Assembly: GCF_902652985.1 (NCBI RefSeq)
Contig: NC_047028.1
Location: 12,462,001 to 12,526,000 of the forward strand
Length of the DNA stretch: 64,000 nucleotides
DNA from: Pecten maximus
Lineage: Eukaryota
Direction of reading: 5' to 3'
This document shows positions 45,001 through 47,621 of this stretch, piece after piece; the stretch's first letter is position 1, and each line of letters opens with the position of its first letter. A program made the position numbers.

Positions 45001-47621
45001 TCATAGCATACATGAAATATTGTGTATATTCTATCCTATATTATATATATATATATATCCTACACTATATGTATGTTACCCTTCATTGAATATATTCTAT
45101 CCTATATTGTATTACTAGTATTCATATCCTGCATTGTATGTACATTCTATTGTATGTATTCTAATCTACTTTGTATATATTCTATCTTACATTTTATACA
45201 TCTATCCTGTATTGGGTATATATATATGTACGCTTATGTTTAACGGTATATTTATATGAATATTAATATTTTATTGCTTTATATTATCCCGTGATAAAAT
45301 AATAATCCAGTATTTAGATTTAAGTAACCTTAGCCAAAGGTTTACTCTCTTATACAATCTCAAGGAGTTACTTCCCCTTAAGTCAATTTGTCATATCAAT
45401 GTGTACATATACATTGTATTTGTCTGTATATAAGGAGAAGACTAAGGTAGGCTATTCCTGATATCTAATGCTATTGACTTTCTTTCTATGTCAATAAAAT
45501 TTGTCAAAATTGAAATTGAATATATCTTTTATTATACATTTAAAAAAAATCCTTTCCTATATCTATCCTACATTGTATATATTCTATCTTACATTGTATA
45601 TATGTCTATTACCTGCATTGTTGCATCCTAAGTTATATATATGCCTGTTTTACATTGTATATATTTTATCCTACTTTGTATAATTCCTATCCTACATTAT
45701 ATATGTGATCATACTTTGTATATCTTCTTATTCTACATTGTATATATCTATCCTTCATTTTATAAATTCTATCCTAATTGTTTATATTCTATCCTACAGT
45801 TTATATATCTATCCTGCATTGTATAAATCCTAAATTATATATGCCTGTTTTACATTGTACATGTATATATTTTCTCCTACTTTGTATAATTCCCATCCTA
45901 CATTGTTATACCCATCTTTAATTTATATTTCTTATCCTACATTATATATATTCTGTCCAAAATTGTTTATATCTATCCTGCATTGTATATATCCTTAATT
46001 ATATATACGTTTTACATTGTACACTGATATTATATTTTATATATTCATATCTTCCATTGCATATTCTATTCATACATTGTGTATTGTTGTCCCATATTAT
46101 ATATTCCTATTCTACTTTTTCAGGTGTATGAAACAACAACGGCTGTCCCTAATCCTTACCATGGCTTTCCTTCAGTCACTTAGCAGCGCTAAAGTCTTCA
46201 GAGATGATGGACTGCATACAGATTTCCAGACGTCCAACGCGGACTTTACCTTGGAGATTTATAAGCGTTTGACTAAAATGTCCACAGACGGGAATTTGTT
46301 CTACTCGCCTTTCTCCATCTCTGCCGCTATGTCCATGGTTTATCTTGGTGCCAGGGAGCAGACGGCAGCCCAGATGATTCCCGCGCTTAGAATTCAATCC
46401 TTAGGTCAGCGGGTGCACGATGGTTATGAGGATTACTTGAAGGTGGTTTTAGGTAAAAGCGATAACGTCACACTTCAGATTGCCAACAGACTGTATCCTG
46501 ACAGTAAGACGGACATTGTACCATCTTTCATTGAGCTATGTGCTAAGCACTACCAAGCCGACACCAAAACAATGGACTATGGACAATTTGAAACTGCAAG
46601 AAAAGAAATCAACGAATGGGTGAGTCATCAGACAGCAGAGAAAATAAAAGACCTTCTTCCTGAGGGATCTTTAAATCCATTAACAATGATGGTATTGGTA
46701 AACGCTATCTACTTCAAAGGTGACTGGGAGACAAAATTTGATGACAAAGTTACCAGGGATATGACCTTTCATAACCTCAAAGGTCAACAAAAGACTGTGA
46801 AAATGATGTTTCAGAAAGCTACAAAATTTCCGCTTAAATACGATGATGAATTCAAATGTAAGGTTTTGGAATTGCCTTACAAAGGGAACAGCCTCTCAAT
46901 GGTCATTATTTTGCCAGATGATACAGACGGATTGCCTGCTCTTGAAGAGAAATTAACCCCGTCCGTACTTAAAGGACTTACGACAGAAATGCCACCTGTA
47001 AAAGTGGAAGTGTTTCTCCCAAAATTTAAACTTAAATCGGGGTTTGAGCTTTCAAAAATGTTCCAAAGTATGGGAATGACAGATCTGTTTGATAAATCCA
47101 AAGCCGACCTGACTGGCATAGACGCCTCCAAGATGTCATATGTGTCCGCCATATTTCACCAAGCTTTTGTGGACGTGAACGAAGAAGGCACTGAAGCAGC
47201 AGCAGCCACAGCCGTTGTAATGATGAAAAGATCATTGCCAAGACCACCATTACAGTTCAAGGCCGACCACCCATTCATGTTTGTCATCAAAGACAATCGG
47301 TCCAACACAATTTTGTTTGTTGGAAGATTTGCTGATGTTGTTGAGGCACAAGGAAAAGATGAATTATAGAAAACTCATTTGTTCAATTTCATTGATACAG
47401 AAAATGTGGTGCTGATGTACTTGCCTTCTGATTTTTACAATTGAACCCTGTCCTAGTTTGCTTGTGTATATGAGACTGAAAACATCACCCTTTAATATAT
47501 TGTTACTACTGCTGTCAATTGTTATATCCTATAGTGTTCACACTGATAACATTGCATTGATAATCTTTATTAGTCCCATGCCGTTTGAAAAACGGGGGGA
47601 CTTTAGGTTTACCCTCCGTCC

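What the first reader, a model, noticed from the sequence alone, without database searches (positions are those of the whole stretch)
47181..47369. Copy 4: MMKR|S plus KDEL, a candidate molluscan proprotein-convertase inhibitor and probable ancestral copy
Dibasic Lys-Arg at P2-P1 (47226-47231) together with a signal peptide and ER-retrieval signal is the architecture of lancelet Bl-Spn1, whose loop I recall as also containing MMKRS, and of Drosophila Spn42Da. P4 is Met rather than Arg, which would favour PC1/3- or PC2-type enzymes over strict furin specificity (inference).
Basis: partly seen in the sequence, partly recalled or inferred. Interest (0 to 1): 0.65.

Follow-up and report, generated by a model that had tools for sequence, protein, structure and literature searches.

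The report
Scallop ER-retained serpin with convertase bait
One of four tandem protease-inhibitor (serpin) genes in a scallop genome keeps an ancient Lys-Arg bait loop and a KDEL tail, the same design as known inhibitors of hormone-processing enzymes in lancelet and fruit fly, so it is a plausible but expected mollusc member of a known kind.

Summary
Window 47181-47369 encodes the hinge, reactive-centre loop and C-terminus of an intact 413-aa serpin (46128-47369, + strand). With canonical spacing, P4-P1' is M-M-K-R|S, and the protein ends in KDEL.

It is copy 4 of four tandem single-ORF serpin genes that are 88-90% identical. Their loops are hypervariable, while the bodies are under purifying selection.

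The host is a pectinid scallop. The loop P7-P8' is identical (15 of 15) in Mizuhopecten and Ylistrum homologues. Dibasic P2-P1 plus an xDEL tail recurs in seven other named bivalve species, and in hemichordates, echinoderms and lancelets.

The lancelet Spn-1 sequence came back as a hit with NMMKR|SL and KDEL. A paper describes it as a proprotein-convertase inhibitor.

Best reading: an ER-retrieved suicide inhibitor of kexin-type convertases that retains the ancestral loop, while its paralogues were retargeted.

Not shown: inhibition, localisation and expression. The neuroserpin-lineage link is unresolved, with no PDCD10 neighbour, no reciprocal best hit and unsupported deep tree nodes. The P4-Met selectivity inference is untested.

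It is a new member of a known kind, of moderate interest.

The parts
46128..47369 (+). Copy 4 serpin coding sequence (413 aa plus stop), a single uninterrupted ORF
   Evidence: ORF list and translation. Pfam Serpin PF00079, E 1.4e-123, residues 36-403. The identical 413-aa protein is in the protein database as P0001. AlphaFold2 model with mean pLDDT 87.4 and pTM 0.85; Foldseek top hits are PAI-2, antithrombin and SERPINB1, TM 0.8-0.94.
46128..46190 (+). Predicted signal peptide (residues 1-21: basic n-region, 10-residue hydrophobic core, SSA|K cleavage context)
   Evidence: Read from the sequence. The hydropathy maximum is 2.32, against 2.69 for lancelet Spn-1. The model shows a low-confidence helix at residues 3-14. 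This is heuristic; no SignalP-type tool was run.
46105..46123 (+). Pyrimidine tract plus AG four bases before the ATG: putative splice acceptor of a 5'-UTR intron (inferred)
   Evidence: Sequence. The same tract plus AG precedes the coding start of all four copies. No transcript evidence is available.
47181..47246 (+). Hinge and reactive-centre loop, P17-P5' (EEGTEAAAATAVVMMKR|SLPRP); the scissile bond is predicted between R368 (47229-47231) and S369 (47232-47234)
   Evidence: Translation and P15 Gly at residue 354. Model residues 356-371 have pLDDT below 50, as expected for an exposed, mobile loop. The loop P7-P8' is 15/15 identical in two other scallops.
47355..47366 (+). C-terminal KDEL, the canonical ER-retrieval tetrapeptide, on a flexible extension after the serpin core
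   Evidence: Translation. Model residues 407-413 have pLDDT below 50. KDEL fits the PROSITE pattern [KRHQSA]-[DENQ]-E-L quoted in PMC4476131 (passages).
36190..37431 (+). Copy 3 paralogue (413 aa, signal-like N-terminus, KDEL; loop IVAC|SS, predicted P1 Cys)
28542..29783 (+). Copy 2 paralogue (413 aa, signal-like N-terminus, KDEL; loop METF|SS, predicted P1 Phe)
21388..22596 (+). Copy 1 paralogue. It has an intact serpin core, but the first Met and most of the signal core are missing, and the ORF ends before the KDEL tail. Its loop is one residue longer (MMFG|MA by canonical count).
   Evidence: The tblastn match runs past the ORF end. Body dN/dS against the paralogues is 0.19-0.29.

Best explanation
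Copy 4 is a functional inhibitory serpin of a scallop that enters the secretory pathway through an N-terminal signal peptide. The KDEL receptor then returns it to the endoplasmic reticulum or early Golgi.

Its exposed loop offers the sequence Met-Met-Lys-Arg|Ser. A kexin/furin-type proprotein convertase that cleaves after Lys-Arg would attack the Arg368-Ser369 bond and become trapped as an acyl-enzyme. The cut loop then inserts into beta-sheet A, which is the standard serpin suicide mechanism. The protein would thus hold down convertase activity in the early secretory pathway, as described for lancelet Spn-1 and Drosophila Spn42Da-A.

Within this scallop lineage the gene was duplicated in tandem. 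Copy 4 kept the ancestral loop. Copies 2 and 3 kept the signal and KDEL but were given new P1 residues (Phe, Cys). Copy 1 lost both address signals.

Shown here: gene integrity, serpin fold, inhibitory hinge, loop register, KDEL, conservation and the duplication pattern. Inferred: signal-peptide cleavage, ER residence, the convertase as target, and inhibition itself.
For: - Intact 413-aa ORF with Pfam Serpin E 1.4e-123.
- Confident native-serpin model in which only the signal region, the loop and the tail are disordered.
- Hinge E-E-G-T-E-A-A-A-A-T with small residues at P12-P9, the pattern of inhibitory serpins by established knowledge, and canonical P15-P1 spacing.
- Lys-Arg|Ser and KDEL are present.
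- Lancelet Spn-1 (P0043), with NMMKR|SL plus KDEL, was retrieved as a homologue at 45% identity over 99% of the query. It is reported to inhibit proprotein convertases (PMC2556349 passages; PMC4476131 passages).
- Spn42Da-A has RRKR plus an ER signal and inhibits furin and PC2 (PMC4006314 passages).
- The loop P7-P8' is 15/15 identical to Mizuhopecten and Ylistrum and 13/15 to Argopecten, with bodies 81-86% identical.
- Dibasic P2-P1 plus xDEL is seen in 28 of 220 scorable relatives. These include 7 other named bivalve species (Mizuhopecten, Argopecten, Potamilus, Mactra, Pinctada, Saccostrea, Dreissena), 2 hemichordates, 3 echinoderms and 3 lancelet records.
- Body dN/dS among the four copies is 0.19-0.45. 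Loop dN/dS is 0.87-2.28, with 6-11 of 15 loop residues differing. Variable columns are 12 of 16 in the loop against 66 of 367 in the body, p 2e-6.
- The four window copies form a 100%-bootstrap clade in a tree built with loop and tails masked.
Against: - No biochemical, localisation or expression evidence exists here. No paper on a molluscan ER or convertase-inhibiting serpin was found.
- P4 is Met, not the Arg of the classic furin motif R-X-K/R-R (PMC4006314), so furin-type enzymes may react poorly.
- Arg at P1 also fits trypsin-like S1 proteases.
- The best overall matches are cytosolic clade-B serpins (SERPINB1 E 1.9e-89, PAI-2), not Spn42Da (2.5e-67) or neuroserpin (1.3e-59).
- The lancelet protein's 120 best hits do not include the scallop copies.
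- A lancelet serpin isoform without signal or KDEL (P0239) carries the same MMKRSLPRPP. The bait therefore also exists outside the ER context.
- The signal peptide was judged heuristically only.
Confidence: 0.6

Rival explanations
1. Copy 4 is a general Arg-specific inhibitor of trypsin-like (S1) serine proteases. The targets could be digestive zymogen activators, or immune or pathogen proteases. It would act in the secretory pathway or after escaping retrieval, and the Lys at P2 would be incidental to convertases.
For: P1 Arg is the commonest specificity for S1 proteases (established knowledge). VMM-x-R is widespread in related serpins that are not ER-targeted, for example fish SERPINB1-like VMMLR|CA. 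The paralogues in the array carry P1 Phe and Cys, which suits a battery aimed at diverse S1 or cysteine proteases. The best overall similarity is to clade-B inhibitors of S1 proteases.
Against: Dibasic P2-P1 is strongly tied to an xDEL terminus in this group (28 with both against 5 dibasic only). Lys at P2 and Ser at P1' are fixed across scallops and recur in the characterised lancelet inhibitor. Active S1 proteases are not expected in the ER (established knowledge).
Confidence: 0.22
2. The Lys-Arg site is a processing site. The serpin would be a convertase substrate (or a non-inhibitory ER chaperone of the HSP47 kind) and not an inhibitor.
For: ER-resident serpins with an xDEL end and no inhibitory role exist; HSP47/SERPINH1 with RDEL is recalled and appears only in the reference list of PMC4476131. 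Dibasic sites are classic processing sites.
Against: The hinge P17-P8 is the canonical inhibitory pattern and is identical to that of proven inhibitors such as SERPINB1 in the alignment. Loop length and register are canonical. The characterised lancelet protein with the same P4-P2' is described as an inhibitor.
Confidence: 0.06
3. Copy 4 is an unexpressed or decaying duplicate, and the motif pair has no present function.
For: It lies in a repeat-rich, recently duplicated region with minisatellites. One neighbour (copy 1) has lost both address signals. No expression data were available.
Against: The ORF is intact, with body dN/dS 0.19-0.32 against the other copies. The loop is 15/15 identical to those of two other scallop genera. 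A conserved putative acceptor precedes the ATG.
Confidence: 0.04

Closest known systems
Lancelet Spn-1 (Branchiostoma lanceolatum Bl-Spn1 / B. floridae Bfl-Spn-1)
   Same: Both have a signal peptide, an inhibitory hinge, an identical P4-P2' (MMKR|SL) and a C-terminal KDEL. Lengths are similar (407 against 413 aa), with 45% identity over 99% of the query (PMC2556349 passages).
   Different: P5 is Asn in lancelet and Val in the scallop, and the sequence after P2' differs (DGETFF against PRPPLQF). The lancelet gene has two introns in the serpin core and sits head-to-head with PDCD10 (PMC2556349). The scallop coding sequence has no intron, and no PDCD10 domain was found in the window. There is no reciprocal best hit. 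Inhibition has been shown for the lancelet protein only.
Drosophila Spn42Da-A (Spn4A)
   Same: A secretory-pathway serpin with a dibasic P2-P1 (K-R) and a C-terminal ER-retention signal. It is an inhibitor of furin and PC2/amontillado (PMC4006314 passages; PMC4476131 passages). The solved isoform B structure matches copy 4 at E 2.5e-67.
   Different: The fly loop is R-R-K-R|A, a full furin motif, against M-M-K-R|S in the scallop. The fly makes loop variants by alternative splicing of loop exons from one gene. The scallop has separate tandem genes, each with its own loop.
[quoted passage not shown]
   Same: Both have a signal, KR before the scissile bond, an ER-type end (HEEL, SDEL) and no intron in the serpin core (PMC2556349 passages). 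All of these match copy 4.
   Different: Their sequences were not retrieved by name here. Related echinoderm hits carry MKKR|SI, MRKR|SI or INKR|SI with RDEL, KDEL or HEEL. The urchin gene is linked to PDCD10; the scallop gene is not within this window.
Vertebrate clade-B (ov-)serpins: SERPINB1 (leukocyte elastase inhibitor), SERPINB8, PAI-2
   Same: These give the highest overall sequence and fold similarity (4ga7 E 1.9e-89; Foldseek 2arq E 1.4e-42). The automatic names of the scallop homologues are 'leukocyte elastase inhibitor-like' or 'Serpin B8'. SERPINB8 is called the only convertase-inhibiting serpin known in vertebrates (PMC6784293 passage).
   Different: The clade-B-like hits seen here start without a hydrophobic N-terminus and end at ...CSP or ...SSP with no extension. 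Copy 4 has both a signal-like start and a KDEL extension.
Neuroserpin (SERPINI1)
   Same: A secretory-pathway serpin with Arg at P1 and a C-terminal sorting extension, proposed as the vertebrate descendant of the Spn-1 lineage (PMC2556349). The language-model look-alike search put a 'Serpin I2' cluster first (score 0.98; a lead only).
   Different: It has a single Arg, not a dibasic pair, it inhibits tPA, and it ends HDFEEL. It is a weaker sequence match (3f5n, E 1.3e-59) than clade-B or antithrombin. Its six-intron gene structure is absent here.

Membership tests
Serpin superfamily, inhibitory type | Serpin domain and fold | tested here: met
   Pfam PF00079, E 1.4e-123, covering profile positions 2-369 of 370. 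The AlphaFold2 model has pLDDT 87.4. Foldseek TM to the target is up to 0.94 against native serpins.
Serpin superfamily, inhibitory type | Inhibitory hinge (P17 Glu, P15 Gly, P14 Thr/Ser, small residues at P12-P9) and canonical loop length | tested here: met
   EEGTEAAAAT followed by 7 residues to P1, in register with SERPINB1 in the HMMER alignment. The consensus itself is established knowledge and is recalled.
ER-resident convertase-inhibiting serpins (Bl-Spn1 / Spn42Da-A type) | N-terminal signal peptide | tested here: met
   The n/h/c layout and the -3/-1 rule were judged by eye. The hydropathy maximum is 2.32, against 0.8-0.9 for four signal-less relatives (P0063, P0076, P0091, P0120). 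This is heuristic only.
ER-resident convertase-inhibiting serpins (Bl-Spn1 / Spn42Da-A type) | Dibasic Lys/Arg-Arg at P2-P1 | tested here: met
   K367-R368 at 47226-47231, conserved in 3 of 3 other scallop species retrieved.
ER-resident convertase-inhibiting serpins (Bl-Spn1 / Spn42Da-A type) | C-terminal K/H-D-E-L type retrieval signal | tested here: met
   KDEL at 47355-47366. It fits the PROSITE pattern quoted in PMC4476131.
ER-resident convertase-inhibiting serpins (Bl-Spn1 / Spn42Da-A type) | Forms a stable complex with and inhibits a proprotein convertase; resides in the ER or early Golgi | not testable with these tools
   No assay, localisation or expression data. The primary paper on Bl-Spn1 (PMC1462704) is not held.
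Neuroserpin/Spn-1 lineage as defined by Kumar & Ragg 2008 | Head-to-head microsynteny with PDCD10 | tested here: not met
   Pfam scan of 377 of 377 selected ORFs: all stop-to-stop ORFs of 45 aa or more, after dropping 111 of 488 as low-complexity. No PDCD10 domain was found. The only hits passing the curated cut-offs were the four serpins, DUF1647, and one repeat-region ORF matching DUF7637. Caveats: short exons would be missed, only 21 kb upstream and 16.6 kb downstream of the array are in view, and the paper itself found no such linkage in fly or worm.
Neuroserpin/Spn-1 lineage as defined by Kumar & Ragg 2008 | Two-residue indel near alpha1-antitrypsin position 173/174 (shared with vertebrate groups 1, 3 and 5) | tested here: inconclusive
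   Copy 4 aligns without a gap to SERPINB1. It has two extra residues relative to conserpin between helix F and strand 3A (alignments). That this is the indel of the paper is my inference. No group 2/4/6 serpin was available as a stored sequence, and the character does not separate clade B from the neuroserpin group anyway.
Neuroserpin/Spn-1 lineage as defined by Kumar & Ragg 2008 | Groups with Spn-1/neuroserpin in a phylogeny | tested here: inconclusive
   NJ tree of 72 sequences and 342 columns, with loop and tails masked and 200 bootstraps. The bivalve xDEL clade has 57% support, the ambulacrarian plus lancelet Spn-1 clade 54%, and the vertebrate clade-B group 100%. The branching among them is unsupported. 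No neuroserpin or Spn42Da sequence could be included. There is no reciprocal best hit.
Clade-B (ov-)serpins, as the automatic names suggest | No cleavable signal peptide and no C-terminal extension | tested here: not met
   Copy 4 has a hydrophobic N-terminus and a 10-residue tail ending in KDEL beyond the Pfam domain. The definition of ov-serpins is recalled.

The most novel reading that the evidence does not exclude
The four genes may form an ER-resident inhibitor battery. After each tandem duplication the signal peptide and KDEL were kept, but the bait was rewritten (P1 Arg to Phe or Cys). Scallops would then police their early secretory pathway against several protease classes, not convertases alone.

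This would be the gene-duplication counterpart of the loop-exon switching of Drosophila Spn42Da. In the tree, Mizuhopecten and Argopecten each also show one MMKR copy paired with one rewritten copy. The same split therefore seems to have arisen independently in three scallop lineages, or to be maintained against gene conversion.

The decapeptide MMKRSLPRPP, shared letter for letter with a lancelet serpin isoform that has neither signal nor KDEL, would then be a bilaterian-age bait older than its ER address.
Probability: 0.3. Interest if true: 0.6.

Novelty: new member of a known kind. Interest (0 to 1): 0.35.

Why it matters
Natural protein inhibitors of proprotein convertases are few. The review passage read here calls serpins the only known natural ones, and I recall PC-specific binding proteins (proSAAS, 7B2) as further cases. 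The characterised convertase-inhibiting serpins come from fly, lancelet and human SERPINB8.

A conserved Lys-Arg/KDEL serpin in scallops and at least seven other bivalves would add a lophotrochozoan branch to the fly, the protostome already known. That strengthens the idea that guarding the early secretory pathway with a serpin is an old bilaterian trait.

It also shows that the automatic label 'leukocyte elastase inhibitor-like' on these mollusc proteins is misleading.

The tandem array offers a clean natural example of how a serpin's target is changed by rewriting about 15 residues while the address signals are kept. No paper on this in molluscs was found in the held library. The supplementary files of Kumar & Ragg 2008, which list the sequences they surveyed, could not be seen.

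Tried and rejected
I used stop-free ORFs instead. Nothing beyond the serpins, DUF1647 and repeat-derived weak hits was found, and there was no PDCD10.

2. A search limited to residues 345-413 was dominated by the conserved strands after the loop, including bacterial serpins. Of its 104 new proteins, 0 had an xDEL end and 6 had a dibasic P2-P1. It added only the lancelet MMKRSLPRPP isoforms.

3. The reciprocal search with the lancelet protein gave no reciprocal best hit. Overall similarity cannot settle orthology in this family.

4. The primary Bl-Spn1 paper is not held. Which convertases it inhibits and how fast is therefore known to me only from recall and from citing papers.

5. Literature searches for molluscan ER or convertase serpins and for serpin tandem arrays in bivalves found nothing relevant.

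6. The language-model look-alike search put Serpin I2 and Spn42Dd-like clusters first. With no alignment or E-value, this is a lead only.

7. I considered an HSP47-like chaperone and rejected it because of the inhibitory hinge. I considered an assembly artefact and rejected it because the copies differ by 10-12% in protein and have distinct flanks.

8. Not used: the genome-contig scan (bacteria and archaea only), the phage, plasmid and E. coli DNA collections, and the 1.84-billion representative search (no names, so no gain for distribution). The genomic context of the homologues in other molluscs therefore stayed unchecked.
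Full report
**What is at the coordinates.** Window 47181-47369 (+) translates in one frame to the hinge, reactive-centre loop, the last strands and the C-terminal tail of a serpin, ending KDEL-stop. Lys-Arg lies exactly at 47226-47231. The stretch is the end of an uninterrupted ORF. From its first ATG at 46128 the protein is 413 aa, and the same 413-aa protein is present in the protein database (P0001). Pfam gives Serpin PF00079 at E 1.4e-123 over residues 36-403. Counting from the hinge Gly (P15, residue 354) with the canonical spacing puts Arg368 at P1 and Ser369 at P1', so P4-P1' is M-M-K-R|S. The HMMER alignment to human SERPINB1 keeps the hinge in register. The window has no N. 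The coding sequence is one exon, so no spliced model had to be joined.

**Source organism.** The nearest named proteins are from scallops: Mizuhopecten yessoensis 83%, Argopecten irradians 82% and 80%, and Ylistrum balloti 82% over a partial model. The window is therefore from a pectinid bivalve and is not human.

**The array.** tblastn of copy 4 against the window finds four matches and no extra fragments: 21382-22614, 28542-29780, 36190-37428 and 46128-47366, all on the + strand.
- The proteins are 88-90% identical to copy 4, with 316 of 415 alignment columns invariant.
- At the DNA level the shared unit around copy 4 (45827-47571) matches copies 3 and 2 at 86-89%, and copy 1 only within the coding part. 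A further upstream block (43582-44736) is shared with copy 3.
- G-rich 39-40-bp minisatellites lie upstream of copies 2, 3 and 4.
- Each coding start is preceded by a pyrimidine tract and AG. I read this as the acceptor of a 5'-UTR intron, but that is an inference without transcript data.

**Selection.**
- For the serpin body, pairwise dN/dS among the four copies is 0.19-0.45.
- For the 15 loop codons P7-P8', 6-11 residues differ per pair and dN/dS is 0.87-2.28. These are tiny samples.
- Variable columns are 12 of 16 in the loop against 66 of 367 in the body (Fisher p 2e-6).
- The loop of copy 4 is 15 of 15 identical to the Mizuhopecten (P0005) and Ylistrum (P0009) proteins and 13 of 15 to Argopecten P0006. 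The bodies are 81-86% identical.
- So one lineage of the family holds its bait fixed while its duplicates rewrite theirs. By canonical count the duplicates have P1 Phe (copy 2), Cys (copy 3) and Gly in a loop one residue longer (copy 1).

P0043 from Branchiostoma lanceolatum is 407 aa and 45% identical over 99% of the query. Its loop is ...AVNMMKRSL... and it ends in ...KDEL. Kumar & Ragg 2008 (PMC2556349; passages read) make these points:
- Lancelet Spn-1 has NMMKR|S at P5-P1', KDEL and a signal peptide, and was shown by Bentele et al. 2006 to inhibit proprotein convertases.
- Sea urchin Spu-Spn-1 has TMTKR|S and HEEL, and a sea anemone serpin has a dibasic site and SDEL.
- The urchin and anemone genes have no intron in the serpin core.

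Drosophila Spn42Da-A has R-R-K-R at P4-P1 and a likely ER signal, and it inhibits furin and PC2 (PMC4006314, passages). Its P1' residue is Ala. The Bentele paper itself is not held.

**Distribution.**
- Of 223 proteins fetched by the two whole-length searches, 220 could be scored. Of these, 28 have [KR]-R at P2-P1 together with an xDEL-type end, 5 are dibasic only, 19 have xDEL only and 168 have neither (odds ratio 49.5, p 4.7e-18). The sequences are related, so this is descriptive only.
- The 28 include seven other named bivalve species: Mizuhopecten, Argopecten, Potamilus, Mactra, Pinctada, Saccostrea and Dreissena (RR). They also include two hemichordates, three echinoderms and three lancelet records.
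- The two gastropod hits seen (Haliotis, Gigantopelta) are not dibasic.
- VMM at P6-P3 is not special to this group. Fish SERPINB1-like proteins read VMMLR|CA. The informative shared states are Lys at P2, Ser at P1' and the ER tail.

**Phylogeny.** I built an NJ tree of 72 sequences on 342 columns, with hinge/loop, signal and tails masked, and with 200 bootstraps.
- The four window copies form a clade at 100%, inside a scallop clade at 100%.
- Mizuhopecten and Argopecten each contribute one MMKR copy and one rewritten copy, drawn as within-species sisters. Support for two-member groups was not printed.
- A bivalve clade rich in xDEL serpins has 57% support, an ambulacrarian plus lancelet Spn-1 clade 54%, and vertebrate clade B 100%. 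The order among these is unsupported.
- Every major bivalve subclade contains a dibasic/xDEL member. That state is therefore the simplest ancestral one for the bivalve group, and copy 4 is the copy that retains it.
- The sequence set was chosen by similarity to the two queries, and no neuroserpin or Spn42Da sequence could be added, because no tool supplies them as stored sequences.

**Tests of the 'neuroserpin lineage'.**
- By sequence, solved neuroserpin (3f5n, E 1.3e-59) and Spn42Da isoform B (4p0f, 2.5e-67) are weaker matches than SERPINB1 (1.9e-89), PAI-2 or antithrombin.
- The lancelet protein's 120 best hits are lancelet, hemichordate and echinoderm serpins and then fish clade-B-like serpins. 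None is from the window or any mollusc, and none is named neuroserpin.
- The synteny marker PDCD10 was not found. I scanned all 377 stop-to-stop ORFs of 45 aa or more that passed a complexity filter (111 of 488 were dropped). The only hits passing the curated cut-offs were the four serpins, a DUF1647 ORF and one repeat-region ORF matching DUF7637. Short exons could be missed, and the view is limited to 64 kb.
- The two-residue indel is present relative to conserpin and shared with SERPINB1, but it cannot discriminate here.
- Membership of that lineage therefore stays open. The functional likeness does not depend on it.

**Structure.** AlphaFold2 with a 56-sequence alignment gives mean pLDDT 87.4 and pTM 0.85. 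Only residues 1-19 (signal), 356-371 (P13-P3') and 407-413 (the tail with KDEL) are of low confidence. That fits a native serpin with a mobile exposed loop and a free C-terminal tag. Foldseek finds PAI-2, antithrombin and SERPINB1 first.

**Mechanism proposed.** The signal peptide takes the protein into the ER, and KDEL-receptor retrieval keeps it in the ER or early Golgi. A kexin-type convertase that recognises Lys-Arg attacks the Arg368-Ser369 bond and is trapped as an acyl-enzyme by loop insertion.
- Shown: gene integrity, fold, hinge, register, motifs, conservation.
- Inferred: cleavage of the signal, residence, target and inhibition.
- I put this at 0.6. The main rival is a general Arg-specific inhibitor of S1 proteases, at about 0.2.
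As I recall, the lancelet protein with the same P4 was reported to act on furin as well. I could not check this.

**Against my reading.**
- There is no functional, localisation or expression evidence.
- The best overall similarity is to cytosolic clade-B serpins.
- There is no reciprocal best hit.
- The same decapeptide MMKRSLPRPP occurs in lancelet serpin isoforms that lack both signal and KDEL (P0239, P0240, P0262). The bait is therefore not tied to the ER.
- The signal peptide was judged heuristically.

**Novelty.** Secretory-pathway serpins with KR and an ER signal are known from fly, lancelet, sea urchin and sea anemone. The mollusc proteins are already in public databases under misleading automatic names.
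- I found no paper on a molluscan one. The main text of Kumar & Ragg has no occurrence of 'mollus' or 'Lottia', and their supplementary lists could not be seen.
- This is a new member of a known kind. The array, with rewritten baits and retained KDEL, is the more interesting part.

Noticed in passing
window 21388-22596 (+), tblastn match 21382-22614: Serpin copy 1 lacks the first Met and most of the signal core. Its ORF stops before the KDEL tail, while similarity continues beyond the stop. Even so, its body dN/dS against the paralogues is 0.19-0.29. It may be a derivative that has left the ER pathway, or a very young pseudogene.
   Followed up: partly
window 28542-29783 and 36190-37431 (+): Copies 2 and 3 keep the signal-like N-terminus and KDEL but have predicted P1 Phe and P1 Cys. 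They would be ER-addressed serpins with non-convertase baits.
   Followed up: partly
protein P0239 / P0240 / P0262 (Branchiostoma records): These lancelet serpin isoforms have no signal peptide and no KDEL, yet carry MMKRSLPRPP, identical to the scallop P4-P6' over ten residues. Body identity is only 42%.
   Followed up: partly
window 46105-46123 and the equivalent sites before copies 1-3: A pyrimidine tract plus AG lies immediately upstream of each coding start. This suggests a conserved 5'-UTR intron with the whole coding sequence in the last exon.
   Followed up: no
window 26697-27583, 33303-33911, 41406-43359; also 59557-64000: G-rich 39-40-bp minisatellites lie upstream of copies 2, 3 and 4 and give long spurious ORFs. 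A C-rich 38-bp satellite of about 120 copies fills the last 4.4 kb. These repeats may favour unequal crossing-over in the array.
   Followed up: no
window 14317-15162 (-): A 281-aa ORF with a DUF1647 domain (E 5.8e-07, just above the curated cut-off) and a hydrophobic N-terminal segment. It is the only non-serpin protein-coding candidate found.
   Followed up: no
window 637-2583, 4627-6442, 7057-8892, 10541-12423, 13385-13875, 47693-48190: Many further tandem arrays with periods of 17-179 bp. The first 14 kb of the window is mostly satellite-like sequence.
   Followed up: no
window 50000-55000: This stretch has a higher G+C content (0.41-0.44) than its surroundings. It has no Pfam match in any ORF of 45 aa or more, and its content is unexplained.
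   Followed up: no
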